The notes: generated from the sequence alone by a model not told the origin. Positions 40,343 through 52,480 are shown, numbered from the stretch's first letter. The stretch: DNA of 64,000 nucleotides from a bacterium HR35 (GCA_002898235.1 BEIL01000001.1:16034-80033), one strand, 5' to 3'. Numbers and translations: made by a program.

Positions 40343-41632
40343 ATGAGTTGGCTTATGGAAAAAAAGTATATTTTGATAGTATTATTTTTGCTTTTCTTGG
40401 GGCTAGTTTTAATTAAGCAAACAAAAATTAGAGCAGAAATCGCTTATTTTTATCCTCAAAGTTGTTTAGGAAGTTTTATTAATCCTGAAAAAGCCCAAGG
40501 AAAGCCCGAAGTTGATAATCCTGATTTAATAAATGAATCAAATTCTGCTGTTTATTTAGGCGGTTTTAAAGAAATTTATTGTGGAAATTTTCAAGGACCA
40601 GAAGTACAAGGCGAAATAAAGAAAATAACATTACATTTTAATTGGATTGTTACTAAAGAAAGGAGAGAAGCAGTTCTAACTGAACCAACCTCAACAAACG
40701 ATTCAAATATTTTAGAAAAAATTATTCCTCCGAAAACAATAGAAATAATACCAGCAACTCCAACAACTGAAACAGCACCTTTACCAAATACCACTCCAAC
40801 ACCAGAAGCAACCTCGACACCTCAGTCATCTTTTAACACGGATTCACGCGGATTATTATTACACGGATATACACGGAAATTATTTAACCTAGATAAAAAT
40901 TATCTAGATATCTTATTTTGGTGGAAAACAACTTTTGCTGAAGAAATGGCAACACCAATAGAATCGACAACACCTACAACCTTAACAACAACTCCATCAG
41001 AAGCTCAAAATCAATCAACTGAAACTCAATCAATAATAATTACAACAACTCCTACATCTACAGAAAATCAAACCGAAACAACCTCTTCTACTACAAGTAC
41101 TGAAGCATTGACTACTCCAACAACCTCAGAAACAACTTCATTAACAACCTCAACTCCTCCTAAAACTCTATTTGAAGTCCATTACACTTTGGATGGTGAA
41201 AATTGGACTTATCTTGGAGATATTAAAACGCAGACTAACGCAGACAACACGCAGACTAACGCAGACAACTATTTTATTCCCGATGTTTCTTTTGAAATAC
41301 CAGTAAATAATTGGCTTGATATTTCAAAAATTCAAATAAAAATCAATTCTTTACCTGATACTGACTACTATCTTTATTTAGAATCAATGTGGTTTGAAGT
41401 TGAATATGAACTTCCGCAAGCAACATCAACTATTTCAGAAATAACAAATTTTGTTGGTGGCACTATAAGTTCTTTAACAGAAAATTTTTCTAATGATACT
41501 TCTACATTGTCAGAAACCTCAACATCTTATGGCGAAGATGATGAAGAAATTTTAACTCCAACAAATTTAGAAAATGCTACTCCTACTCCTCATTACCTCC
41601 TCTTAAACAAAGAAAATATACTAAAGAAATAA
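40343..41632 (+). CDS. secreted Thr/Ser/Pro-rich (mucin-like) surface protein
   Basis: N-terminal signal anchor and long T/S/P low-complexity linkers. Contains in-frame short repeats (40836-40878 and 41228-41269). Confidence 0.4.
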   Translation: MSWLMEKKYILIVLFLLFLGLVLIKQTKIRAEIAYFYPQSCLGSFINPEKAQGKPEVDNPDLINESNSAVYLGGFKEIYCGNFQGPEVQGEIKKITLHFNWIVTKERREAVLTEPTSTNDSNILEKIIPPKTIEIIPATPTTETAPLPNTTPTPEATSTPQSSFNTDSRGLLLHGYTRKLFNLDKNYLDILFWWKTTFAEEMATPIESTTPTTLTTTPSEAQNQSTETQSIIITTTPTSTENQTETTSSTTSTEALTTPTTSETTSLTTSTPPKTLFEVHYTLDGENWTYLGDIKTQTNADNTQTNADNYFIPDVSFEIPVNNWLDISKIQIKINSLPDTDYYLYLESMWFEVEYELPQATSTISEITNFVGGTISSLTENFSNDTSTLSETSTSYGEDDEEILTPTNLENATPTPHYLLLNKENILKK

Positions 41633-41988
41633 AAATTCAAAATCCTGACAATATTTCTTGTAAAATAGAGCCATTTTCAATTGAAGTTAAAGAAGAAGAA
41701 ACAAAAACAGCCAATTTAATAATTTCAGCAAATAACACAAAAAACATTGAAATCGGAAGCTTGCCTTCAGGAATAGACATTCAATTAGAAAATAATAATT
41801 ACGAAATGCAAACATCAAATAATTCAATTCAACTAAAAATATATCGTCAACAAGGTTCAGACAAAGGCAACTTCAATATTCCAATAATCCTTTCCTCAGG
41901 CAATTCAACAATAATTTGTCAAATGAATATCATAGCATTTTAGTAGCTAGTAGCTAGTAATTAGTATCTAGTAGCTAGTAGTAGTAAG

Positions 41989-42336
41989 ATGAAAACAAAA
42001 TCTTTTAAGGAATTAATAGTTTGGCAAAGAGCAAAAGAATTAGCAATAGAAGTATATAAATTAACATCAAAATTTCCAAAGTCAGAGCTTTTTGGATTAA
42101 CAAACCAAATGAGAAGAGCTTCAATTTCTATTTCTTCAAATATTGCTGAAAGTTATCATCGCTTCCATTCTAAAGAGAAAAAACAATTTTTAGCAGTTGC
42201 CTTTGGCTCTGGAGCAGAATTAGAAAGCCAAATTGAAATTGCTAAATCACTTTTTCCAAATTTAGATTATTCAAAAGTAGAAACATTACTTGCAGATATA
42301 ATGAAAATTTTAAATAAAATTATTAATAAAAAATGA
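41989..42336 (+). CDS. four-helix-bundle protein of the 23S rRNA intervening-sequence protein / Avd family
   Basis: WQRAKELAIEVYKLTSKFPKSELFGLTNQMRRASISISSNIAEG is the characteristic motif of this family. The stop overlaps the next start (ATGA). Confidence 0.7.
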   Translation: MKTKSFKELIVWQRAKELAIEVYKLTSKFPKSELFGLTNQMRRASISISSNIAESYHRFHSKEKKQFLAVAFGSGAELESQIEIAKSLFPNLDYSKVETLLADIMKILNKIINKK

Positions 42337-45300
42337 AAAAAAATCATCCAAAATTATCTACTAGATTCTACTTACTATCTACTAGATTCTTAGTTTTATT
42401 ACTTTTAATTTCAATGTTCTTTTTCGGTTATCCTGTTATTTGGAAAAATCCAAGAATACCACCAAAGATTAAGGAAGCACAGGCGGCAATTAGTTTTATT
42501 GGAAGCGTTGAAGGATCAGCAGCAAACGGCGGCGATGTCACGCTTAGCCTTTCCGGTCTTGGACTCCAAGAAGGCGACCTCGTCATCGTGGCCTATGCCA
42601 TTGGAGATAATGATAACGTGAATTTCAACATGGCAATACTATCGCCAGCTGGTTATACCGAGGTTGCCGACTTACATTCCGATGATACACAAGATGTTGA
42701 TCTCGGTGTTTACTGGAAAGTTATGGGAGCCACACCAGACACATCTGTTACGGTAGATGGTTTAGGAGGAACTGATGCTTCAGTGGCAGCAGTGGCAATG
42801 GCTTTCCGGGGTGTTGATCCCGCAACTCCAATGGATGTGATTCCAACTACGGCAACTGGCATTAATACTATGCATCCCAATCCCCCAGCAATAGACTATG
42901 TAAGCACCGGTGTCTGGACAGTTATTGCGGGAGCAAGTGGGCATGCGCTTAATTTAGCTAATACTAACAATCCCTATACTTTCCCATCAGGATATACAAC
43001 AGATAATGTTCAACGACCTGAAAATGATACAAGCGATGTGACAGTTGGATTGGGATACAGAACAAATCCCGCTGATCCCGAGGATCCTGGCGTTATGACA
43101 CACAGCGGAACTGACAGCACAAGTTACTCGTGGGCTGCAGTTACAATTGCTTTAAGACCCAAACCACCTTCTACTTTTAATCAATCAGCTTATAGATTTT
43201 TTAATAATCTTGATTCAACTGATGTTGGTTCTCCTTTAGCCAATCAAAATACTCCAGCAAGCTTAACTTCAGCTGGTCAAGCATTTAGATTGAGATTACT
43301 TATTCATGTAGGAACATCAAATCTGTTGGAAAATGAACAAAGTTTCAAACTTCAATTTGGTACCTCTACTGGTTCATCTTGTACTTCTTCACCACCTGCT
43401 TCTTGGGCTGATGTTACAACTTCAACACCAATAGCTTTTAATGACAACCCAACACCAGCTGATGGTGCTACTTTAACTGCTAATACTAATGACCCAACTC
43501 ATGGAGCTGATATTATTGTCAATCAAACCTATGAAGAATTAAATAATTTTACAAACTCTGTCTCTTCAATTAACGCTGGCGAAGATGGTAAATGGGACTT
43601 TTCATTAAAAGATAATGGTGCTCCAGCTGGTACTACTTATTGTTTAAGAGTTGTAAAAGCTGATGGAACTTTATTAGATACTTATTCAGTTATTCCTCAA
43701 ATTACAACCGCCGCAGCTCCAATTTTATCAGCTTATAGATTTTTTAATAATTTAGATTCAACTGATGTTGGTTCTCCTTTAGCTAATCAAGATACAGCTG
43801 CAACTTTAACTTCAGCTGGTCAAGCTTTTAGATTAAGACTTTTACTTCATTTACCCTCGGGTTTAAATTTCAATTCTCCCACTTCTTCAAATAATTTAAT
43901 AGAATCTGGATTAATTCCAGCTGGCTCTGGTGGTGGTAGAATTAGAATAGCTGCGCCTACTCCCAATAGATTATACTTGGTTTATTATGATATGACTAAT
44001 CTAGATTTAAGATTCTGTCGAAGTACTAATGGTGGAGTGAGTTGGAGTTGTAATGCAATTGAATCGACTGGTGATGTAGGCGTAACTCCGGATATTTATG
44101 CTCTTGATGAAAACAATATATTTATTACTCATAGAGATGCAACAAATGGTAATTTAAGATTTTGTAAAAGTAGTAATGGTGGTTTAAATTTTTCTTGTTC
44201 TATTCTTGAAGCTGGTTGGCAGGGGTTTGATTCTTCTATTAAAGCTATTTCAACTTCAACAATTTTTGTTTCTTACGCTCCAGCTCCAGCAAATTTTAGC
44301 TATTCAATTTTGAGATTTTGCCGAACAACTGATGGTGGTAACACCTGGAATTGCTCAGATGTTGAAGGAAATACAACAACTCAATATGGTTGGTATTCAT
44401 CTTTAGATGCAGTTGATTCTAATAATATTTATATTGCCCACTATGATGGGATCAATTTAGATTTAAGATTTTGTCGGACTTCAAACGGTGGAACAACTTG
44501 GAATTGTGGTGTAATTGAAACTACAGGTGATATAGGAAGAAAACCATCTATAAAAGCTTTTAACAATAATTATATTTATATAGCACATCGAGACGAAACA
44601 AATAATCAATTAAGATTTTGTCGAACTACAGATGGAGGAACTAGTTGGAATTGTAATGCAATAGAAATCGGAGGTTTTTCTTCTTCTTTAAAAATAGTTG
44701 ATAAAGATGTAGTTTATATAGCCCATTTTGATTTTACAAATGCTTCTATAAGACTTTGTAATACTAATAATGGTGGACAAACTTGGAGCTGTTCTACAAT
44801 TGCTAATGCTCCCCCTACTCTTACTTCTGGTGAAAATTTAAGTCTTTCTTTAGATTTACTTGATCCTTATATGATTTATGTAGCTTATGGTTTTACTACT
44901 GATTCTTCTAATGAGGTAAGATTGTATAAATATACAGGGAATGATTTTTTTAAACTTCAATATTCAGTTATGTCTGGAACTTGTGATACTTCATTTTCTG
45001 GTGAAGTTTATAATGATGTAGGTTTCGATACCCCTATTGCTTTTTATAATAATAACACTACAAGTGATGCCTCGACTCCAACTACTAACACCAATGATCC
45101 AACTCATGGTACTGATACAATTGTTTATCAAACTTATAAAGAAAAAAAATTTTTTACAAATAGAACGAACATTTTTTCGGGAAGTGATGGTTTATGGGAT
45201 TTTGTTTTGAGAGATAATAACGCTCCTTCAAATACAACTTATTGTTTAAGAGTTGTAAAAGCAGATGGAAGCTTACTTCAGGGTTACAATGTTATCCCTC

Positions 45301-45797
45301 AAATTACAACTGCAGCAGCTGCACCGATTACTTGTACTTTTTCAGCAACTTCAACTTCATTTTCAAGTTTATCTCCTTCAGCTGTTTCAACTTCTTCTCC
45401 TGATATAACTATTACTGTTACTTCTTCAGCTGGTTTTATAATTTCTGTAAATGATGCAGGTAATGGAACTAACCCAGGTCTTTATAAATCAACCTCGCCA
45501 ACATATCTAATTCCTTCTCCAAATTCTTCTTATACAGCAACTGCTACTTTAGTGGCTGGGGTAGATGGTTATGGAATTCAAGCAACAACTACAAATTCAA
45601 ATATAAGTATTAATCCAAGATACAATGTTAGTGGAGATACTGTTGGAGGACTAACTACAACAACTATTACTTTGGCAAGTTCTTCAGTTGCTGTTTCTTC
45701 GGCTCAAATTACAATTAAACATAAAGCAGCAGTTTCAAGTTTAGCACCAACAGGCAATTATCAAGATACAATAACATATAGCTGTACAAGTCCATAG
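42333..45797 (+). CDS. large surface protein with N-terminal signal anchor, a compositionally atypical N-terminal domain, duplicated YRFFNNLDSTDVGSPLANQ segments, a BNR/Asp-box beta-propeller and a C-terminal domain shared with the next gene
   Basis: Six BNR-like blades (LRFCRSTNGGVSWSC, LRFCKSSNGGLNFSC, LRFCRTTDGGNTWNC, LRFCRTSNGGTTWNC, LRFCRTTDGGTSWNC, IRLCNTNNGGQTWSC). 1154 aa. Confidence 0.55.
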   Translation: MKKNHPKLSTRFYLLSTRFLVLLLLISMFFFGYPVIWKNPRIPPKIKEAQAAISFIGSVEGSAANGGDVTLSLSGLGLQEGDLVIVAYAIGDNDNVNFNMAILSPAGYTEVADLHSDDTQDVDLGVYWKVMGATPDTSVTVDGLGGTDASVAAVAMAFRGVDPATPMDVIPTTATGINTMHPNPPAIDYVSTGVWTVIAGASGHALNLANTNNPYTFPSGYTTDNVQRPENDTSDVTVGLGYRTNPADPEDPGVMTHSGTDSTSYSWAAVTIALRPKPPSTFNQSAYRFFNNLDSTDVGSPLANQNTPASLTSAGQAFRLRLLIHVGTSNLLENEQSFKLQFGTSTGSSCTSSPPASWADVTTSTPIAFNDNPTPADGATLTANTNDPTHGADIIVNQTYEELNNFTNSVSSINAGEDGKWDFSLKDNGAPAGTTYCLRVVKADGTLLDTYSVIPQITTAAAPILSAYRFFNNLDSTDVGSPLANQDTAATLTSAGQAFRLRLLLHLPSGLNFNSPTSSNNLIESGLIPAGSGGGRIRIAAPTPNRLYLVYYDMTNLDLRFCRSTNGGVSWSCNAIESTGDVGVTPDIYALDENNIFITHRDATNGNLRFCKSSNGGLNFSCSILEAGWQGFDSSIKAISTSTIFVSYAPAPANFSYSILRFCRTTDGGNTWNCSDVEGNTTTQYGWYSSLDAVDSNNIYIAHYDGINLDLRFCRTSNGGTTWNCGVIETTGDIGRKPSIKAFNNNYIYIAHRDETNNQLRFCRTTDGGTSWNCNAIEIGGFSSSLKIVDKDVVYIAHFDFTNASIRLCNTNNGGQTWSCSTIANAPPTLTSGENLSLSLDLLDPYMIYVAYGFTTDSSNEVRLYKYTGNDFFKLQYSVMSGTCDTSFSGEVYNDVGFDTPIAFYNNNTTSDASTPTTNTNDPTHGTDTIVYQTYKEKKFFTNRTNIFSGSDGLWDFVLRDNNAPSNTTYCLRVVKADGSLLQGYNVIPQITTAAAAPITCTFSATSTSFSSLSPSAVSTSSPDITITVTSSAGFIISVNDAGNGTNPGLYKSTSPTYLIPSPNSSYTATATLVAGVDGYGIQATTTNSNISINPRYNVSGDTVGGLTTTTITLASSSVAVSSAQITIKHKAAVSSLAPTGNYQDTITYSCTSP

Positions 45798-45957
45798 TTA
45801 GTAGCTAGTAATTAGTAATTAGTAACTAATAGTAATGCAATAAAAAAATTTTTTTGACAAAATATGATATAATTTTAGTAAAATAAGCTCGCCCTGTAGT
45901 GAAACGAATTTTCTACTACAGGGGTAGAAGGGTCGAAAATTAAATAAAAAAAATCAA

Positions 45958-46593
45958 ATGGAAAAGGAAAATCAAACACAAAATTTAATTCTTTTGATAG
46001 GCATATTTTTAACTATTTATTTTGTTTATGAACTTTTTATTCTACCATCAGGACTTTTAAGAGCACAAACTAATGTGACGGTTACAGCAACCGTAACAAC
46101 AACTGTAACTTGTAATCCTGCAACAACTACTACTAATTTTGGCACTATTGATGCAAGTGCTGTTTATACTTCTTCTCCTAATGTAATTACCACTGTTTCT
46201 TGTAATCCTGCAGCAGGATGTAATGTTACTATTAGGGATCAAGGTTCAGGAACTCAACCAGGTTTATGGAATTCAACAGCTTCTTATCTAATTCCTTCAC
46301 CAAATGCTTCTTTTTCAGCAACAGCAACTTTAGTAGCTGGAACAGAAGGTTATGGAATTCAAGCAACAACAACTTCAGCTGGCTCAGGAGGAACTCTTTC
46401 TTTAAATTCAAGATATGTTCAAACAGGAAATACTGTCGGAGGATTGACAACAACCACAATTCAATTAGCTTCTTCAACCGAGCCAGTAGCAAATAGAGAA
46501 ATTGTTGTTACTCATAAAGTAGCAATCTCAGGTTTAACCAGAGCAGGTAATTATCAAGACATAATTACATATAGCTGTGCAAGTAATTTTTAG
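45958..46593 (+). CDS. secreted paralog of the C-terminal domain of the preceding 1154 aa protein
   Basis: Signal anchor. About 60% aa identity to the last roughly 170 aa of ORF 42333-45797 (shared PGLWNST..YLIPSPN..ATATLVAG..GYGIQATTT..TVGGLTTTTI..GNYQDxITYSC). Confidence 0.45.
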   Translation: MEKENQTQNLILLIGIFLTIYFVYELFILPSGLLRAQTNVTVTATVTTTVTCNPATTTTNFGTIDASAVYTSSPNVITTVSCNPAAGCNVTIRDQGSGTQPGLWNSTASYLIPSPNASFSATATLVAGTEGYGIQATTTSAGSGGTLSLNSRYVQTGNTVGGLTTTTIQLASSTEPVANREIVVTHKVAISGLTRAGNYQDIITYSCASNF

Positions 46594-46655
46594 TATCTAG
46601 TAGTTAGAATTTAGTAAATAGCAATGAATCAAAAAAGTAAAGAAAAAAATTAAAA

Positions 46656-47534
46656 ATGAAAAAATATCTCTTATTTATTTTTTTACTAGCTTCTATTTTA
46701 TATTTACTAGTTACTAATTCTGTTTTTGCTTTAACTGTTGGACCTGCTAAATTAGAATTTACAACTGATCCGGGGCAAGTTTTAGAATTTAGTTTGTTTG
46801 TTAGAAATGATAGTGATTATGATTCTAAGTATCAAATTATTGTTGAAGGGTTTACTGAAGAAAATGGAGAAAGAAAATATATTACCAATCCGCCTGAAGC
46901 AAGTTGGGTTGAAGCACCAAAGGATATTTTTATTAAAGCCAAAGAAGATACAAATGTTCCTATAAAAATTAATGTTCCTAAAGATGCTCCGCCAGGAGGT
47001 CATTTTTTAGTTTTATGGGTAAGCACTAAACCTGAGGGAGGTCAGGTTGCAATTGTTACCAGAGTTGGAGCTTTAGTTTTTATTAATGTTTCAGGAAAGG
47101 CTATTTATAAGGCTTATATTAGTGAGCTAAAAGCACCAAAAATTGCTTTTGATTTTCCAGTAAAATTTTCTTATGTAATCAAAAATGAAGGCAACACCTA
47201 TATAACACCTAAAGGCAATATTGAAATTAAAAATATTTTCGGAAGATTAATTGCTGATTTGCCTATAAATCCAAGGGAATTACAGCTTTTACCCAATACC
47301 TCAAAAAATTTTGAACAAGAATGGAAAGCACCGTTTGCTTTTGGAATTTATAAAGCTATTTTTAATTTAGAATATGCCAATTCAAGAAACTCTTTGAATT
47401 ATTGGTTTGTTTTTATTCATCTTAAAGCATTAATTATTTTGATGATTATCTTTGTTTTTGTTGTTTTTGTTTTACCAAGATTAATTAAAAAATATAATGA
47501 ATGGGTAATTAAAAGATATATGCAAAATAAATGA
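46656..47534 (+). CDS. secreted beta-sandwich protein with C-terminal TM anchor
   Basis: Signal peptide, predicted beta-rich ectodomain, C-terminal hydrophobic helix followed by basic residues (LPRLIKKYNEW). Confidence 0.35.
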   Translation: MKKYLLFIFLLASILYLLVTNSVFALTVGPAKLEFTTDPGQVLEFSLFVRNDSDYDSKYQIIVEGFTEENGERKYITNPPEASWVEAPKDIFIKAKEDTNVPIKINVPKDAPPGGHFLVLWVSTKPEGGQVAIVTRVGALVFINVSGKAIYKAYISELKAPKIAFDFPVKFSYVIKNEGNTYITPKGNIEIKNIFGRLIADLPINPRELQLLPNTSKNFEQEWKAPFAFGIYKAIFNLEYANSRNSLNYWFVFIHLKALIILMIIFVFVVFVLPRLIKKYNEWVIKRYMQNK

Positions 47535-48581
47535 ATGAATTTAAAAAATTTTTTCAATGTTGTTTTAATAATTTTCTTCTCGTTTTTATTACTTTATGCT
47601 TTTAATTATTTAAAATCTGCAGGTGTAACTATTAAAGCTTTTGTGCCTGGAGTTTGTGGCAATAATCTTAAAGAACCAGGAGAAGAATGTGATGGTCCTG
47701 ATTTAGGAGGTCAAAGCTGCGTTTCTTTAGGTTATTCAGGAGGAACTTTGTCTTGTAATTCTAATTGTACTTTTAATGCTTCACAATGCACTATCTCCCC
47801 GCCAAGTGGAGGAGGCGGAGGCGGTGGAGCATATATACCTCCTTATGGAACAGTTATTCTTTCAGGAAGAGCCCAACCAAATTCTGATGTTACTTTAATT
47901 TCAGATGGCCAAATAAGAACAATTATCAAAGCTGATACTGATGGAAAATTTAAATTTACTCTTTCCAACCTAACCCCAGGCAATTATATTTTTACTTTAT
48001 ATGCTGAAGATACTGAGGGAAGAAGGACAAGCTTACATTCAGTTCCAGCAGTAGTTACCGCAGGTCTTACAATTGAAATAGGTAATATTTTTCTTTCACC
48101 AACAATTGATATTGATAAAATACAAGTTAAGCGTGGAGATATTTTAAGAATTTTTGGTCAAACAGCTCCTGATTCTAATGTTTTGATTGTTGTTTCTTCT
48201 GAAGAAGAATTATATTTTCAAACTCAAGCAGAAAAAGATGGAAGTTATTTATATGCCTTAGATACTACAATTTTAGATTATGGCCAGCATTTTACAAAAT
48301 CAAGATCAATTTTAGCCAATCAATTAGTTAGTTCTTTTTCAAAAGCTTTAGCATTTCAGGTTTCAACAACTTCGGTAGTTAAAAAACCAACAAAATGTCC
48401 ATTAAAAGGTGATTTAAACAATGATTGCAGAGTAAATTTGATTGATTTTTCAATTGCTGCTTATTGGTATAAAAGAAAATTAAGTCCAAATTTTGCTAAA
48501 ATTGAAAAAGAGAAATTAAACGGAGATGGAAAGGTCGATTTGGTTGATTTTAGTATTATGGCGTATTGGTGGACGGGATAA
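47535..48581 (+). CDS. dockerin-containing surface protein (N-terminal signal anchor, Cys-rich repeat, Gly linker, Ig-like region, C-terminal dockerin)
   Basis: Two dockerin-type Ca-binding segments, DLNNDCRVNLIDFSIAAYW and LNGDGKVDLVDFSIMAYW. A CGNNLKEPGEECDGPDLGGQSC Cys-rich repeat. Confidence 0.55.
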   Translation: MNLKNFFNVVLIIFFSFLLLYAFNYLKSAGVTIKAFVPGVCGNNLKEPGEECDGPDLGGQSCVSLGYSGGTLSCNSNCTFNASQCTISPPSGGGGGGGAYIPPYGTVILSGRAQPNSDVTLISDGQIRTIIKADTDGKFKFTLSNLTPGNYIFTLYAEDTEGRRTSLHSVPAVVTAGLTIEIGNIFLSPTIDIDKIQVKRGDILRIFGQTAPDSNVLIVVSSEEELYFQTQAEKDGSYLYALDTTILDYGQHFTKSRSILANQLVSSFSKALAFQVSTTSVVKKPTKCPLKGDLNNDCRVNLIDFSIAAYWYKRKLSPNFAKIEKEKLNGDGKVDLVDFSIMAYWWTG

Positions 48582-48584
48582 TAG

Positions 48585-48800
48585 ATGTTTCGCGAGTTGG
48601 CTTTTATATATCGCACACACGCCTATGAGCACCGGCACTCAACTTCCTCCAGCGGCAAGTTGGTGCCTCGTGGTCTCGGCTCAAAAACTTTGCCATCTGC
48701 TGAAAGCAGACTGGCAAAGACCAAGCTTTTTAAGCCTCCGACACGTGCTCTACGGCGTGGTGCTCGACAAAATGTCTGCGTCAGTCTGCGTTTTATACAA
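48585..48800. other. 220 bp GC-rich (about 50% GC) intergenic element with internal inverted repeats
   Basis: Sharp composition jump versus flanks. Hairpin potential in GGCACTCAACTT...AAGTTGGTGCC and GCAGACTG...CAGTCTGC. Ends with GTCTGCGTCAGTCTGCGTT, the reverse complement of the ACGCAGAC motif seen in in-frame insertions elsewhere. Confidence 0.5.
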
Positions 48801-48802
48801 AA

Positions 48803-49621
48803 ATGGCAAAAATTTATTTACAAATAGATAAGGAAGTGAATACTAATTATTTCACAGTTCCTATTTATCTTGACACCGAAGGTGAATCAGTTAATGCTTT
48901 TGAAGTGAAGATAAAAACATCTAACAATTTGATTTTTAGAGATTATTTAGAAAAAGATTCAATTATTAGTTATTGGATTGAAAAACCTTCAATTAAAGAA
49001 AATATTTTGTCATTTTCAGGAATTACTCCAGGTGGTTATATTGGTAAAAAGGGTTTGTTGGTAAATTTAATTTTTGAAGCTAAACAAAACGGACAAGCTT
49101 TTATTGAAATTTTACCTTCATCACAAATTTTACTAAACGATGGTTTAGGAACTAAGGCAGGATTAAAAACAGATAGATATGAATTTTTGTTAAATATTAC
49201 TCAAACTCAAAAAATAAGCATTGAAGACCGTTATCCTCCAGAACCATTTAAAATTTATCCTCAAAGAAATAAGGAAATTTTTAACAATAAGTATTACATT
49301 ATTTTTGAGGCTAAAGATAAACAATCAGGTATAGCTTATTATGAAGCTGCTGAAGTTCCTATCTGTATAAATCTAGGTTTAACCTGCGAAAATCCTCGTT
49401 TTGAAAAAGTCTCATCTCCATATCTTTTAAAAGATCAATCTTTAAGAAGCTATATTTATGTTAAAGCAGTTGATCGAGCAGGAAATGAAAGAATTGAAAT
49501 TTTAAAACCACAAAGATTGTTTTTAGCTGAAGAAATTTTGTTTTTCTTTATTTTTAGTAGTTTGTTTATTTTAGGAATCATTTTTTATAATAAAATTAAA
49601 TGGCATTTAAGAATAAAATAA
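48803..49621 (+). CDS. cohesin-like domain protein with C-terminal TM anchor; N-terminal signal peptide apparently missing
   Basis: Cohesin-like N-domain aligns with that of the next gene (AKIYLQIDKEVNTNYFTVPIYLDT vs ASIYLSPAQKTVNVGDSFSIVVYVES, then LVNLIFEAKQNGQAFIEIL...LLNDGLG). An Ig-like ...SGIAYY...VDRAGN domain. The ORF begins exactly at the mature-domain boundary, immediately after the GC-rich element. Confidence 0.45.
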   Translation: MAKIYLQIDKEVNTNYFTVPIYLDTEGESVNAFEVKIKTSNNLIFRDYLEKDSIISYWIEKPSIKENILSFSGITPGGYIGKKGLLVNLIFEAKQNGQAFIEILPSSQILLNDGLGTKAGLKTDRYEFLLNITQTQKISIEDRYPPEPFKIYPQRNKEIFNNKYYIIFEAKDKQSGIAYYEAAEVPICINLGLTCENPRFEKVSSPYLLKDQSLRSYIYVKAVDRAGNERIEILKPQRLFLAEEILFFFIFSSLFILGIIFYNKIKWHLRIK

Positions 49622-51303
49622 TTTTATTTTTAGGGATATTAAACTTTTTAGTTTTTAAAGGAGTTTTCGCTGCCTCAATTTATCTTTCTCCAGCACAAAA
49701 AACAGTTAATGTCGGTGATAGTTTTAGTATTGTTGTTTATGTTGAATCTTCTGATCAAGCAATGAATGCTGTTTCTTTTAGATTAAGCTTTCCTAAGGAT
49801 TTACTTAAGGTTAATAATGTTTCTAAGGCTGGAAGTATTATTAATTTTTGGGTTCAAGAACCTCAAGTTTCAGCTGAAGAAATTTTTACTGAAGGAGTAG
49901 TTTTAAATCCTGGTTATCAAGGAAGTGCTGGAAAAATTTTAACAATTAATTTTAAAGCTTTAAAAGAGGGAACTGCTGATTTAAATTTTATTTCTGGTAG
50001 CGTTTTAGCTAATGATGGGCAGGGAACAAATATTTTAAAAAGTTTAAATTCAGCAACAATTAAAATTAGACCTAAAGTAAAAGAAGAAAAAACAAAAGAT
50101 GTTTTTCAACAAACTTCTTTTATCCCAGCTCCAATAATTATTTCTCCAACGCATCCTAGCCAAAATAAATGGTATAACATAAAAGAAGCCAAGTTAGTAT
50201 GGAATTTACCAGAAAATATTAACGAAGTAAGAACCTTACTTGGACAAAATCCAAATGCTTATCCTCAAGTAAGTTATATTCCACCAATAAATTCGAAAGA
50301 TGTTACTACCCCCTATGATGGTGTTTGGTATTTTTCTCTTCAATTTTGTAATGAAACTAGTTGTTCAGATATAGGAAGATATAAACTCCAAATAGATACA
50401 ACACCTCCAACTGTAAATTTGAAAGAAATTCAGAGAGAAGATTTAACTGACCCAAGAGTAAAAATTTATATTGATGCTAAAGACGATCTTTCTGGAATTG
50501 ATTATTATTTAATAAATATAAATGGAAAAACTGAAAAATGGATTGATGATGGTACTCATATTTATCAACTAAAAGATTTAAAACCTGGTCAATATGAAAT
50601 TTCAGTTAAAGTTTTTGACAAAGCAGGGAATAATAATGAGGCTAAATTAAGTTTTGAAATAAAACCATTAGAACCACCAGAAATTACTGATTATCCAAAA
50701 GAAGTTGTTTTGGGTGAACCAGTTATTATTAAAGGAAGAACAAAGTATCCAAATGTCGATGTTTATGTTTATTTAGAGCATCAAAAGGGCGCAAAAGTTG
50801 TTAATAATACTAAAACAAAAGAAAATGGTGAATTTGAAATAATGGTTAATAATTTATCAGCTGGAGTTTATAAAGCTTATGCTCAATTTAGGGATGAAAT
50901 AGGTCGAGAGTCTTTGCCGAGTGATTATGTAAATATTGTTGTAAGAGTGCCTTATCTTATTGAAGTTTTTGGCTTGAAAATAAATATATTTAATGTTCTT
51001 ATTCTGTTTATTAGTTTAATCATAGTTTTAATCCTAGGAATCACATATTATCTTAGAAAACTTAATCAAATAAGAGAAAGAGTAGAAAAAGAAACAAAAG
51101 ATTTGCATAATGCAATCCATAATTTTATAAAATATCTTCATTCAAGATTTGAAGAACAAATAAAACTTTTACAAGAAACAAAGAATAAAAGAGAATTAAC
51201 CGAAGAAGAAAACAAAATTCTACATGAGCTTGAAGAAAAATTAGATAAATTAAATAAGTATTTACATAAAGAAATTAAAGATATTGAAGAGATTTTTAAG
51301 TAA
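49600..51303 (+). CDS. cohesin-like domain surface protein with signal peptide, Ig-like domains, C-terminal TM anchor and cytoplasmic coiled coil
   Basis: Cohesin pattern TVNVGDSFSIVVYVES..AVSFRLSFPKDLLKV..GKILTINFKALKEGTADLNFISGSVLANDGQG. A later LSGIDYY...FDKAGN Ig-like motif. TM helix ILFISLIIVLILGI near the C-terminus. Confidence 0.55.
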   Translation: MAFKNKIILFLGILNFLVFKGVFAASIYLSPAQKTVNVGDSFSIVVYVESSDQAMNAVSFRLSFPKDLLKVNNVSKAGSIINFWVQEPQVSAEEIFTEGVVLNPGYQGSAGKILTINFKALKEGTADLNFISGSVLANDGQGTNILKSLNSATIKIRPKVKEEKTKDVFQQTSFIPAPIIISPTHPSQNKWYNIKEAKLVWNLPENINEVRTLLGQNPNAYPQVSYIPPINSKDVTTPYDGVWYFSLQFCNETSCSDIGRYKLQIDTTPPTVNLKEIQREDLTDPRVKIYIDAKDDLSGIDYYLININGKTEKWIDDGTHIYQLKDLKPGQYEISVKVFDKAGNNNEAKLSFEIKPLEPPEITDYPKEVVLGEPVIIKGRTKYPNVDVYVYLEHQKGAKVVNNTKTKENGEFEIMVNNLSAGVYKAYAQFRDEIGRESLPSDYVNIVVRVPYLIEVFGLKINIFNVLILFISLIIVLILGITYYLRKLNQIRERVEKETKDLHNAIHNFIKYLHSRFEEQIKLLQETKNKRELTEEENKILHELEEKLDKLNKYLHKEIKDIEEIFK

Positions 51304-51322
51304 TTAATTTATAATATAAATA

Positions 51323-52480
51323 ATGCTTAATCCAGAATTAAAATTGAATCCAAAAATTTTTGATGAAGATATTGAGCAAAAGCCAATTAGAGATGGTTAT
51401 AGTGATGCTTTGGTTGAGCTTGGAGAAAAAAATCCTGATGTTGTTGTTTTAACTGCTGATTTAGCTGAATCAACCAGAGCTCATAAATTTGCCGAAAAAT
51501 TTCCTGAAAGATTTATTGAATGCGGAGTGGCTGAACAAAATATGGCTGGTATTGCTGCTGGTTTAGGTGTAAGTGGTAAAATTGCTTTTATTTCCTCTTA
51601 TGCAACTTTTTCTCCTGGCAAAAATTGGGAAACAATTAGAACAACAATAATTTATAATGATTCAAATGTAAAAATTGCCGGTCATCATTCAGGAATTGTT
51701 ACTGGTCCTGATGGTGCCACTCATCAAGCAACCGAAGATATAGCTATTATGAGATGCTTACCGAATGTTAGAATAATTTCTCCTTGTGACTTTTGGGAAG
51801 CAAAAAAAGCAACTTTATATTCAGCAGAAGTTTATGGTCCTTTTTATATTAGATATGTAAGAGATAAAACACCTATAATAACAACAGAAGAAACACCTTT
51901 TAGATTTGGAAAAATTGAAGAATTCTGGATACCAAACACAGACCATACACGGACTATACACGGACAGAACAGACAAAATAATAAGTCCGAACAGTCTGAG
52001 TCTAGTCCGAATCAGTCCGTGTTAAGTCCAAACAAGTCCGTGTCTAGTCCGAACAAGTCCGTGAGTATGCAGAATAACGCAGATAAAAATATAGTTGCTA
52101 TTTTTGCAACTGGACATCTAGTTTATCAGGCACTTTTGGCTGCTAAAGAATTAGAAGAGGAGGGAATAGATGTTTATGTTTTGAATGTTCATACAATAAA
52201 ACCACTTGATGTTGAAAAAATTTTTGAAATTGCAAAAAAAGTTAGAGGAATAGTTACTTTAGAAGACCACCAAGTTCAAGGAGGAATGGGAAGCGCAATT
52301 AGTGAAGCTTTAATGAATATTGATTTTCAAAAACAATATGGCCTTTTTTCTGTTCCTCCGATTAAATTTTTAGGACTTCAAAATACTTTTGGTGAATCGG
52401 GCAAACCCAATGAATTAATTCAAAAATATGGAATGGATAAAGAGGCAGTAAAAAAGGCGGTTTATGAGTTTCTTAAATGA
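51323..52480 (+). CDS. transketolase, C-terminal subunit of a split enzyme, with a roughly 50 aa low-complexity in-frame insertion
   Basis: Pyrimidine-binding and C-terminal transketolase domains (FIECGVAEQNMAGIAAG, GPDGATHQATEDIAIMR). Insertion PNTDHTRTIHGQNRQNNKSEQSESSPNQSVLSPNKSVSSPNKSVSMQNNADKN at nt 51935-52090. Confidence 0.8.
   Translation: MLNPELKLNPKIFDEDIEQKPIRDGYSDALVELGEKNPDVVVLTADLAESTRAHKFAEKFPERFIECGVAEQNMAGIAAGLGVSGKIAFISSYATFSPGKNWETIRTTIIYNDSNVKIAGHHSGIVTGPDGATHQATEDIAIMRCLPNVRIISPCDFWEAKKATLYSAEVYGPFYIRYVRDKTPIITTEETPFRFGKIEEFWIPNTDHTRTIHGQNRQNNKSEQSESSPNQSVLSPNKSVSSPNKSVSMQNNADKNIVAIFATGHLVYQALLAAKELEEEGIDVYVLNVHTIKPLDVEKIFEIAKKVRGIVTLEDHQVQGGMGSAISEALMNIDFQKQYGLFSVPPIKFLGLQNTFGESGKPNELIQKYGMDKEAVKKAVYEFLK

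What the first reader, a model, noticed from the sequence alone, without database searches (positions are those of the whole stretch)
47535..51303. Cohesin-dockerin gene set (one dockerin protein, two membrane-anchored cohesin proteins) in a CPR-like genome
One gene ends in a canonical dockerin duplicated Ca-binding segment (DLNNDCRVNLIDF / LNGDGKVDLVDF). The two following genes each start with a cohesin-like beta-sandwich, and their C-terminal TM helices would tether them to the cell surface. Together they look like a minimal scaffoldin-type assembly, physically linked to other surface proteins (the BNR propeller and a mucin-like protein). In an episymbiotic lineage such a module could mediate host attachment rather than cellulosome assembly.
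Basis: partly seen in the sequence, partly recalled or inferred. Interest (0 to 1): 0.7.

Follow-up and report, generated by a model that had tools for sequence, protein, structure and literature searches.

The report
Cohesin-dockerin module beside a CPR pilus operon
Three neighbouring genes of this ultra-small (CPR) bacterium really do encode one dockerin protein and two cohesin proteins, a set kept together in hundreds of related species, here directly downstream of genes for a recently described CPR pilus, so it probably tethers a secreted surface protein, perhaps the pilus base, to the cell membrane rather than building a cellulosome.

Summary

It is not a cellulosome. Each cohesin protein has one cohesin, there is one dockerin protein, and no enzyme domain was found.

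P1-P2-P3 is a tightly spaced gene trio. It was colinear in 63 of 66 loci from Paceibacteria, ABY1-type lineages and Doudnabacteria, and at least 564 species genomes carry P3.

In the window and most Paceibacteria the trio follows Pam-type pilus genes: a large protein with BNR-like repeats and a pilin-like C-terminal domain (G1), a small pilin-like protein (G2), and a membrane-anchored PapD/WxLIP-like chaperone (G3).

Best reading, by inference: secreted P1 has no anchor of its own and docks onto membrane-anchored P3 or P2. P1's N-terminal strand resembles a pilin donor strand, so it may tie the pilus to the cell.

Caveat: in this clade P2 has no signal peptide, because a GC-rich element sits where its 5' end should be, yet the gene is under purifying selection.

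The domain names already exist in NCBI annotation. I found no paper describing the conserved trio or its pilus linkage.

The parts
42333..45797 (+). G1: 1154-aa protein with an N-terminal hydrophobic segment, weak BNR-like repeat matches, and a C-terminal pilin-like domain (about 45150-45797). Candidate large or tip adhesin of the pilus.
   Evidence: Pfam BNR_2 24.2 bits, below its cut-off. The C-terminal 215 aa are 50% identical to G2 and end in the same GNYQDTITYSC motif. Jackhmmer finds relatives upstream of the trio in other loci.
45958..46593 (+). G2: 211-aa small pilin-like protein, made of a signal or anchor segment, the strand NVTVTATV, and one pilin C-terminal domain.
   Evidence: NCBIfam NF058581 CPR_Pam_pilin_C at E 1.1e-3, 19 bits (cut-off 55), but covering profile positions 3-148 of 148. 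Of 23 aligned sequences (the G2-like ORFs of related loci plus window G2 and the G1 C-terminal domain), 19 match NF058581 (best 2.7e-45) and 10 match NF058579 PamT (best 1.4e-36).
46656..47534 (+). G3: 292-aa membrane-anchored chaperone-like protein, with a signal peptide, two Ig-like domains and a C-terminal transmembrane helix (about aa 255-280). Its stop codon abuts the P1 start codon.
   Evidence: AF2 model pLDDT 93.2. Foldseek top hits are E. faecium WxLIP (9i1y, 9i25; E 7.6e-10), then the chaperone-usher chaperones CfaA, CsuC, Caf1M, FimC and PapD, and also RbmA. Pfam WxLIP_PGBD 20.7 bits, below its cut-off. A G3-like gene lies upstream of P1, within 6 kb, in 42 of 58 loci.
47535..48581 (+). 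P1: 348-aa secreted dockerin protein. It has a signal peptide (aa 1-29), the strand GVTIKAFV, one DUF4215-like Cys-rich module (aa 41-85), a poly-Gly linker, two Ig-like domains and a C-terminal dockerin.
   Evidence: The Cys-rich module matches repeat units of giant proteins that score for Pfam DUF4215. Apart from the N-terminal signal segment, no hydrophobic segment was found.
48405..48578 (+). Dockerin module of P1 (aa 291-348): two near-identical Ca-loop plus helix repeats.
   Evidence: Pfam Dockerin_1. Solved dockerins are hit by the ortholog profile. The Ca-loop residues and the DFSI.AYW helices are invariant or nearly so.
48582..48802 (.). 221-nt GC-rich (50%) structured element between P1 and P2. 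It occupies the place where P2's signal-peptide coding region lies in other lineages.
   Evidence: It is the only GC island in the window that is neither a tRNA nor coding sequence. Folding z-scores are -5.3 and -5.2 on the two strands. No Rfam match. A related element lies at the same site in L004, and other GC-rich elements, which share modules with L004's but for which no match to the window's element was seen, lie there in L085 and L086.
48803..49621 (+). P2: 272-aa protein with a divergent cohesin (aa 1-125; 48803-49177), an OmpL47-type Ig-like domain and a C-terminal transmembrane helix (about aa 243-265). It has no signal peptide in this clade.
   Evidence: dN/dS is about 0.25 against close relatives.
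49600..51303 (+). P3: 567-aa type-I membrane protein. In order: signal peptide (aa 1-24), cohesin (aa 25-157; 49672-50070), FN3-like domain (aa 178-265; 50131-50394), Big_13 Ig-like domains, transmembrane helix (about aa 458-484; 50971-51051), and a conserved cytoplasmic tail of about 83 aa, read as coiled coil from its sequence only, carrying the motif KRxLTEEExKI (51052-51300).

Best explanation
Bases 42333-51303 form one co-directional gene cluster for cell-surface proteins. Its last three genes are a non-cellulosomal cohesin-dockerin tethering module.

Shown:
- P1 carries a bona fide dockerin.
- P3 carries a bona fide cohesin, and P2 a divergent one.
- P1 has a signal peptide and no other hydrophobic segment.
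- P3 has a signal peptide, a membrane-distal cohesin on a stalk of FN3 and Ig-like domains, a transmembrane helix and a conserved cytoplasmic tail.
- The trio is syntenic and tightly spaced across Paceibacteria, ABY1-type lineages and Doudnabacteria.
- In the window and most Paceibacteria it follows Pam-type pilin-like genes and a membrane-anchored PapD/WxLIP-like chaperone.

Inferred:
- After Sec export, P1 is held on the cell by Ca-dependent binding of its dockerin to the cohesin of P3, and of P2 where P2 is exported.
- The two near-identical dockerin repeats allow either orientation, or two cohesins at once.
- P1 is an adaptor made of a lineage-variable N-terminal head, a poly-Gly hinge, and a constant tail of two Ig domains plus the dockerin.
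- Where the pilus genes are present, P1's mature N-terminus is an alternating-hydrophobic strand like the pilins' donor (linker) strand. P1 would then complete the last pilin by donor-strand complementation and fasten the filament to the membrane through the cohesin-dockerin joint. In Saccharimonadia that role is ascribed to the directly membrane-anchored PamR.
For: - Domain identities.
- Ca-loop and helix residues of the dockerin are invariant.
- The P2 and P3 cohesins keep the same invariant set of residues: NA, W, P, PG(G), NDGxG.
- Topology.
- Synteny: the trio is colinear in 63 of 66 loci. Median gaps are 7 nt for G3-P1, 9 nt for P1-P2 and -27 nt for P2-P3.
- At least 564 GTDB species genomes carry P3.
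- Upstream genes are Pam pilin-like genes and a chaperone-fold protein with a transmembrane helix.
- The Pam system as published uses membrane-anchored chaperones and no usher (bioRxiv 10.64898/2026.03.03.709456).
- Second-copy loci (L084, L085) carry G1-G2-G3-P1-P2 without P3, so P1 and P2 were duplicated together with the pilus genes.
- P1's N-terminal type tracks the presence of G3: 30/4 against 9/16.
- The strict strand motif occurs in 8 of 39 P1s with G3 upstream, 0 of 20 without, 20 of 43 pilin-like ORFs, and 1 of 849 background ORFs.
- The P1 family has variable heads on a constant tail.
Against: - No interaction was tested.
- The window's P1 scores just below Pfam's dockerin cut-off, and window G2 scores far below the Pam pilin cut-off.
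- The P3 profile finds no solved cohesin by sequence.
- About a quarter of loci, the ABY1-type ones, have the trio without detectable pilin-like or chaperone genes. The trio is therefore not obligatorily a pilus part.
- The donor-strand motif is short, and the strict form is present in only 8 of 39 pilus-linked P1s.
- The loci are phylogenetically related, so the association counts overstate the evidence.
- G3 and P2 match no Pam-named NCBIfam model.
- P2 lacks a signal peptide here, which the model does not explain.
Confidence: 0.55

Rival explanations
1. The trio is a stand-alone display system. It presents P1's N-terminal head as an adhesin or ligand-binding unit on a cohesin stalk. It has no physical link to the pilus, and the neighbouring pilus genes are merely co-regulated surface genes.
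For: - ABY1-type loci have the trio with no pilin-like or chaperone gene nearby, and their P1s have different heads (FN3 plus SSxNF motifs).
- P1 heads vary widely across the family.
- The trio is more widespread and more conserved than G1 and G2.
Against: - G3's stop abuts P1's start, and the median G3-P1 gap is 7 nt.
- P1 and P2 were duplicated along with the pilus genes.
- P1's N-terminal type correlates with the presence of G3.
Confidence: 0.25
2. P2 and P3 are part of the pilus assembly or regulation platform, standing in for the missing usher. P3's conserved cytoplasmic tail would couple to a cytoplasmic factor, and P1 would be an accessory assembly factor rather than a structural anchor.
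For: - P3's cytoplasmic tail is conserved, with the motif KRxLTEEExKI and invariant L513, L533, E537 and E558.
- Pam pili have no identified usher or trans-envelope machine.
Against: - The tail matches no known signalling or ATPase-binding domain. The only matches are weak ones to ATP synthase subunit b, at E about 0.5.
- Cohesins are known as binding modules, not pores.
- The trio also occurs without pilus genes.
Confidence: 0.1
3. The two domain types do not bind each other. The 'cohesins' are just structural beta-sandwiches, and the 'dockerin' is a Ca-binding or carbohydrate-binding tail.
For: - No binding data exist.
- Many non-cellulosomal cohesin-like and dockerin-like modules have unknown partners (my own knowledge: Peer et al. 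2009, FEMS Microbiol Lett).
Against: - Synteny is near-universal at one dockerin protein to two cohesin proteins.
- The dockerin helices and a common residue set in both cohesin families are extremely conserved.
- P1 has no other means of cell retention.
Confidence: 0.08
4. It is a minimal cellulosome, that is, polysaccharide-degrading enzymes assembled on a scaffoldin.
For: The cohesin and dockerin folds are closest to cellulosomal type I modules.
Against: - P1, P2 and P3 have no glycoside hydrolase or carbohydrate-binding module.
- Each protein has a single cohesin.
- The window has a single dockerin ORF.
- The best double-module structural match is the non-cellulosomal C. perfringens GH84C Coh-FN3.
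Confidence: 0.02

Closest known systems
Type I cohesin-dockerin pairs of cellulosomes (e.g. C. thermocellum 1ohz, C. cellulolyticum 2vn5/2vn6)
   Same: - Duplicated dockerin with Ca ligands at loop positions 1, 3, 5, 9 and 12, each loop followed by a helix.
- Internal two-fold sequence symmetry of the dockerin, as in dual-binding-mode dockerins.
   Different: - No scaffoldin with several cohesins, no enzymes and no CBM.
- Anchoring is by a transmembrane helix, not by SLH domains or sortase.
- The interface residues are conserved across hundreds of species rather than being species-specific.
- The host is a CPR bacterium.
Non-cellulosomal cohesin-dockerin systems: C. perfringens GH84C Coh-FN3 and its toxin complexes (2w1n, 2o4e, 2vo8), and the Archaeoglobus fulgidus cohesin (2xdh)
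   Same: - The cohesin is followed by an FN3 domain, as in 2w1n, the top Foldseek hit at E 3.8e-12.
- The module is used for protein-protein tethering outside cellulose degradation.
   Different: The partners here are a small secreted adaptor and two membrane proteins, encoded as a fixed operon next to pilus genes. They are not secreted glycosidases or toxins.
Pam pilus system of CPR bacteria (Troman et al. 2026, bioRxiv 10.64898/2026.03.03.709456; Ca. Mycosynbacter amalyticus, Saccharimonadia)
   Same: - Upstream genes match the NCBIfam Pam pilin and PamT models.
- G3 is a two-domain PapD-like protein with a C-terminal transmembrane helix, like PamC and PamD.
- There is no usher gene.
   Different: - The paper mentions no cohesin, dockerin or Paceibacteria.
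- Its proposed anchor, PamR, is a single RbmA-like membrane protein with an N-terminal strand.
- Here an equivalent role would be split between P1 (strand plus dockerin) and P3 or P2 (cohesin plus transmembrane helix).
- Window G2 is a one-domain pilin-like protein and scores far below the family cut-off.
WxL / WxLIP (Csc) surface-protein clusters of Firmicutes (Hassan et al. 2023, PMC10599100; PDB 9i1y, 9i25)
   Same: - Same cluster logic: a small protein consisting only of the shared domain (G2), a large protein with that domain at its C-terminus and binding domains at its N-terminus (G1), and a protein of two Ig-like domains plus a transmembrane helix (G3).
- WxLIP is G3's best structural match.
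   Different: - There is no W-x-L motif. The C-termini end in ..YQDTITYSC.
- Pfam WxLIP_PGBD scores below its cut-off.
- I am not aware of WxL clusters that carry cohesin or dockerin genes. This rests on my own knowledge and was not tested here.

Membership tests
Dockerin type I (Pfam PF00404) | Tandem duplication of a segment of about 22 residues, each a 12-residue Ca-binding loop followed by a helix | tested here: met
   P1 aa 293-314 and 327-348 are 12/22 identical, by my count from the two repeats listed. Both have a loop followed by a DFSI.AYW helix.
Dockerin type I (Pfam PF00404) | Asp or Asn at loop positions 1, 3, 5, 9 and 12 | tested here: met
   Repeat 1 has D293 N295 D297 N301 D304, invariant in 23 orthologs. 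Repeat 2 has N329 D331 D335 D338. Position 1 of repeat 2 is K in the window and variable elsewhere, being D in the orthologs with a short linker.
Dockerin type I (Pfam PF00404) | Score at or above Pfam's gathering cut-off (22.9 bits) | tested here: not met
   The window protein scores 21.2 bits, E 3.3e-4. However, 22 of 23 orthologs match at E <= 0.01, best 6e-9, and the family profile hits solved dockerins at E 9e-7.
Dockerin type I (Pfam PF00404) | Ca-dependent binding to a cognate cohesin | not testable with these tools
This needs AF-Multimer or AF3, or ITC or pull-down with and without EDTA.
Cohesin (Pfam PF00963) | Score at or above Pfam's gathering cut-off (24.1 bits) | tested here: met
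   P3 scores 26.3 bits over aa 33-156, covering profile positions 7-139 of 139. P2 has no hit of its own, but 11 of 55 P2 orthologs and 12 of 23 P3 orthologs match.
Cohesin (Pfam PF00963) | Cohesin beta-sandwich fold (nine-stranded jelly roll in solved cohesins) | tested here: met
   [not shown]
Cellulosome | Scaffoldin with several cohesins, plus several dockerin-bearing carbohydrate-active enzymes | tested here: not met
   There is one cohesin per protein and one dockerin ORF in 64 kb. No enzyme or CBM domain was found in P1-P3. The whole genome was not available for checking.
Pam pilus system (CPR) | Pilin with a C-terminal domain matching NCBIfam NF058581 or NF058579 | tested here: inconclusive
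   Window G2 scores 19 bits against a cut-off of 55, but over the full length of the profile. Of the 23 aligned sequences (G2-like ORFs of related loci plus window G2 and the G1 C-terminal domain), 19 match, best 2.7e-45, and 10 of 23 match PamT.
Pam pilus system (CPR) | Membrane-anchored PapD/FimC-like chaperone (PamC, PamD) | tested here: met
   The G3 model has pLDDT 93.2, two Ig-like domains and a C-terminal helix. Foldseek hits WxLIP, CfaA, CsuC, Caf1M, FimC and PapD. This is similarity of fold only: there is no Pam-named sequence model hit.
Pam pilus system (CPR) | The trio P1, P2 and P3 being described components of the system | tested here: not met
   The paper mentions neither cohesin nor dockerin. 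P2 orthologs match no Pam-named NCBIfam model, nor do the window's own P1, P2 and P3.
WxL / WxLIP cluster | [quoted passage not shown] | tested here: not met
   No Pfam WxL-domain match was reported for G1 or G2. WxLIP_PGBD scores 20.7 bits against a cut-off of 27.3. Only the fold and the cluster layout are alike.

The most novel reading that the evidence does not exclude
In Paceibacteria a cohesin-dockerin joint is the membrane anchor of a donor-strand-exchange (Pam-type) pilus. P1 would be the terminating subunit: its N-terminal strand completes the last pilin, and its dockerin plugs into the membrane-anchored cohesins P3 and P2. To my knowledge this would be the first cohesin-dockerin pair used to fasten a pilus to a cell. 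It would also be a modular, non-covalent solution to anchoring a chaperone-type pilus where the published model has no usher and no trans-envelope machine.
Probability: 0.3. Interest if true: 0.8.

Novelty: new variant of a known kind. Interest (0 to 1): 0.6.

Why it matters
CPR (Patescibacteria) bacteria make up a large share of bacterial diversity, and the few cultivated members grow attached to host cells. Very few of their surface structures are understood.

This trio is one of the better conserved surface-protein modules in Paceibacteria and ABY1-type lineages. P3 occurs in at least 564 species genomes, and P1 orthologs are 50-65% identical to the window's. Despite that, I found no paper on it.

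If it tethers a secreted adaptor, or the base of the newly described Pam-type pilus, it gives three things:
- a concrete, testable model for how these cells hold their attachment organelles;
- an extension of Pam-type pilus genes to Paceibacteria;
- a new biological use for the cohesin-dockerin pair outside polysaccharide degradation.

The pair's extreme conservation could also make it a useful orthogonal affinity tag.

Tried and rejected
- Rfam, at gathering and at E-value thresholds, found nothing for the GC-rich P1-P2 spacer.
- The P3 profile against PDB sequences found no cohesin. Fold search was needed.
- SEML1_0315, the essential 'dockerin' protein of Southlakia (PMC10633639), is a 927-aa lone gene with Ig/PapD-like domains. 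It sits in an unrelated context and is not a P1 ortholog.
It was redone with database homologs.
- NCBIfam found no Pam-named models for G3 or P2 orthologs. No sequence link to PamC, PamD or PamR could be made.
- The promoter and terminator scan of 41600-51500 was uninformative, with fewer hits than in shuffled sequence.
- I looked for an in-frame upstream start or signal-peptide exon for P2. There are stop codons in frame and no hydrophobic ORF in the spacer.
- The strict donor-strand regex captures only 8 of 39 pilus-linked P1s. The other N-termini, as listed, show variant alternating strands, so the motif supports the model but does not decide it.
- Literature searches for cohesin or dockerin together with Parcubacteria, Patescibacteria or CPR found no description of this trio.
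- The cellulosome reading was rejected for lack of enzymes and of proteins with several cohesins.

Full report
**1. The observation**

Bases 42333-51303 hold six co-directional ORFs on the + strand. I call them:
- G1 (42333-45797)
- G2 (45958-46593)
- G3 (46656-47534)
- P1 (47535-48581)
- P2 (48803-49621)
- P3 (49600-51303)

The finding covers P1 to P3. P3 is identical to HRbin35_00066 of 'bacterium HR35', and its relatives are all Parcubacteria/Patescibacteria.

**2. The dockerin**

P1 ends in two near-identical repeats, DLNNDCRVNLIDFSIAAYWYKR and KLNGDGKVDLVDFSIMAYWWTG.
- Pfam Dockerin_1 covers almost the whole model but scores 21.2 bits against a cut-off of 22.9.
- 22 of 23 orthologs match the model, best 6e-9.
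- A profile of the orthologs hits solved dockerins: 2y3n_B at E 9e-7, then 4fl4, 5nrm and 1daq.
- The Ca-ligand positions and both helices are invariant or nearly so across orthologs that are 51-86% identical overall.
- NCBI already names relatives 'dockerin type I repeat-containing protein'.

**3. The cohesins**

P3 aa 33-156 passes Pfam Cohesin at 26.3 bits against 24.1. A profile of P3 orthologs found no solved cohesin by sequence, so I modelled aa 1-270 with 115 homologs and obtained pLDDT 92.8.
- Foldseek's best hit is the C. perfringens GH84C cohesin plus FN3 double module (2w1n, E 3.8e-12), followed by many cohesins at TM 0.65-0.77.

P2 has no Pfam hit of its own, but the evidence for a cohesin is good:
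- It aligns to P3's cohesin (BLASTP E 1e-12).
- The family HMMs cross-hit at 1.5e-17 and 6.4e-35.
- 11 of 55 P2 orthologs match Pfam Cohesin.
- Both families keep the same near-invariant residues: NA, W, P, PG(G) and NDGxG.

The family HMMs find no other dockerin or cohesin ORF in the 64 kb.

**4. Topology**

- P1 has only an N-terminal signal-type segment and no other anchor.
- P3 has a signal peptide, a transmembrane helix at about aa 458-484, and an 83-aa conserved cytoplasmic tail carrying KRxLTEEExKI.
- P2 has a C-terminal transmembrane helix but no signal peptide. All P2 orthologs outside the HR35/KatS3mg clade have one.

In this clade P2 starts at about the mature N-terminus of the other orthologs, directly after a GC-rich element. 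dN/dS is about 0.25, close to P3's 0.18-0.23. The gene is therefore maintained, and its topology here is unexplained.

**5. Conservation and context**

The titled records include Paceibacter, and Portnoy-, Colwell-, Jorgensen-, Wolfe-, Vogel-, Sung-, Wildermuth-, Komeili-, Magasanik-, Falkow- and Doudnabacteria.

In the loci I fetched:
- P1-P2-P3 is colinear in 63 of 66 loci that have enough upstream DNA. Two of the three misses are artefacts of my own criteria.
- Median gaps are 9 nt for P1-P2 and -27 nt for P2-P3.
- Some genomes encode P2 and P3 as a single fused protein.
- A G3-like gene lies upstream of P1, within 6 kb, in 42 of 58 loci. Where G3 directly precedes P1 the median gap is 7 nt. 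In the window the G3 stop abuts the P1 start.

**6. The upstream genes**

G2 gave a weak but full-length match to NCBIfam NF058581, 'Pam pilus system pilin subunit'. Of 23 aligned sequences (the G2-like ORFs of related loci plus window G2 and the G1 C-terminal domain), 19 match it, best 2.7e-45, and 10 match the PamT model NF058579, best 1.4e-36.

The Pam system was described in 2026 for a Saccharimonadia bacterium (bioRxiv 10.64898/2026.03.03.709456). Its features are:
- pilins assembled by donor-strand exchange;
- PapD-like chaperones that carry a C-terminal transmembrane helix;
- an RbmA-like membrane anchor, PamR;
- no usher.

How the window's genes compare:
- G1's C-terminal 215 aa are 50% identical to G2. 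G1 therefore looks like a large adhesin ending in a pilin-like domain.
- The G3 model (pLDDT 93.2) has two Ig-like domains and a transmembrane helix. It matches E. faecium WxLIP best, then CfaA, CsuC, Caf1M, FimC and PapD.
- The layout of a small protein, a large protein and a two-Ig-domain membrane protein also mirrors the WxL clusters of Firmicutes (PMC10599100).

The Pam paper mentions no cohesin, dockerin or Paceibacteria. G3 and P2 orthologs match no Pam-named model.

**7. How the trio relates to the pilus genes**

Evidence for a link:
- Second-copy loci in related genomes carry G1-G2-G3-P1-P2 but not P3. P1 and P2 were thus duplicated together with the pilus genes.
- P1 is modular. It has a constant tail (poly-Gly linker, two Ig domains, dockerin) and a variable head. 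Here the head is one DUF4215-like Cys-rich unit.
- P1s with G3 upstream begin, right after the signal peptide, with an alternating-hydrophobic strand. In the window this is GVTIKAFV, and elsewhere for example VNITASV or VDIVAIV. It resembles the pilins' linker strand, which in the window's G2 is NVTVTATV.
- P1s without G3 begin with a different (D/E)(F/Y)(S/T)SxNF motif.
- The strict motif V.[VI][ST][AG].[VI] occurs in 8 of 39 P1s with G3, 0 of 20 without, 20 of 43 pilin-like ORFs, and 1 of 849 other ORFs.

These counts are not phylogenetically independent. The motif is short, and the strict form is not universal.

Evidence against an obligatory link: ABY1-type loci have the trio with no detectable pilin-like or chaperone gene.

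**8. Mechanism**

Shown: the domain identities, the topologies, the synteny and the neighbouring Pam-type genes.

Inferred:
- Secreted P1 is held on the cell by its dockerin binding the membrane-distal cohesin of P3, and of P2 where P2 is exported.
- The symmetric dockerin may bind in either orientation, or bind two cohesins at once.
- In pilus-linked loci P1 may cap the filament by donor-strand complementation and so anchor it.

The rival readings are scored in the sections of this report: stand-alone display of P1's head, an assembly platform, no interaction at all, and a cellulosome. The cellulosome reading fails for lack of enzymes and of proteins with several cohesins.

**9. Novelty**

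The domain names are already in public annotation. I found no paper linking cohesin or dockerin to Parcubacteria or Patescibacteria beyond one passing mention of an unrelated protein.

What is new is the conserved trio as a unit, its wide distribution, and its position directly downstream of Pam-type pilus genes in Paceibacteria. I therefore file it as a new variant of a known kind.

**10. Side observations**

- A 221-nt GC-rich structured element lies between P1 and P2.
- In related genomes a PDDEXK_3 gene flanked by short inverted repeats sits at the same site.
- A repeat-made in-frame insert lies in the adjacent transketolase-like gene.

Noticed in passing
window 48582-48802: A 221-nt GC-rich (50%) element in a genome of 25-30% GC. 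It is the only GC island in the window that is neither a tRNA nor coding sequence. It folds far better than shuffled sequence on both strands (z -5.3 and -5.2) and has no Rfam match. Its hairpin GGCACTCAACTT-N11-AAGTTGGTGCC recurs at the same P1-P2 intergenic site in L004:1740-1773. Other GC-rich modules are shared at that site by L004, L085 and L086. It looks like a small mobile or structured-RNA element with a preferred insertion site.
   Followed up: partly
window 48803-48830 (P2 start); L003:6517, L086:7324, L084:7736, L085:7170: P2 in the HR35/KatS3mg clade begins at about the mature N-terminus of other P2 orthologs, so it has no signal peptide. The ORF is nevertheless intact in five loci, with dN/dS about 0.25. 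How, or whether, its cohesin reaches the cell surface is unexplained.
   Followed up: partly
L003:5904-6516 and L084:7054-7735 (same site as window 48582-48802): In two related genomes the P1-P2 spacer holds a PDDEXK_3 (PF13366) ORF flanked by arrays of short inverted repeats (CACACGAAT / ATTCGTGTG). 23S_rRNA_IVP (PF05635) genes also sit inside the neighbouring pilus clusters of L084 and L085. This suggests a family of small selfish elements that target this operon.
   Followed up: no
window 51935-52070, inside the transketolase-like gene 51323-52480: An in-frame insert of about 135 nt made of short inverted repeats (ACACGGAC / GTCCGTGT). It encodes a low-complexity stretch that, by comparison with the orthologs, lies between the Transket_pyr and Transketolase_C domains. 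The L003 ortholog has a PDDEXK_3 domain at that position (495 aa), and the L086 ortholog has no insert (342 aa). It looks like the scar or solo repeats of the same kind of element, tolerated in frame.
   Followed up: partly
L041:7745-9067, L075:7744-9054, L054:7588-8940 and similar loci: The ABY1-type P1 proteins (about 440-455 aa) lack the Cys-rich head. They start with repeated (D/E)(F/Y)(S/T)SxNF...DPV motifs followed by an FN3 domain. A small conserved membrane protein of 133-140 aa (MPTNNLKLVSVV...) is encoded just upstream in L041 and L075, with a similarly placed 138-aa protein of related sequence in L054, and there are no pilin-like or chaperone genes. This may be a different way of using the same cohesin-dockerin platform.
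   Followed up: no
L084:1-8575 and L085:1400-8153: Related genomes hold a second copy of the cluster (G1-G2-G3-P1-P2) that lacks P3 and is followed by the rpe gene. In both copies, P2 carries in-frame inserts rich in G+C-type codons (e.g. ...SSLPGKPNVVEKSSPQGSTTENLSRSEPQGSTTE...).
   Followed up: no
proteins P0360-P0366 and others: The Cys-rich unit of P1 (profile positions 38-87) occurs 12 to 33 times in tandem in giant proteins of 1100-3800 aa. Pfam calls these units DUF4215 in the one giant protein tested (P0363). P1's head is a single copy of a widely repeated module.
   Followed up: partly
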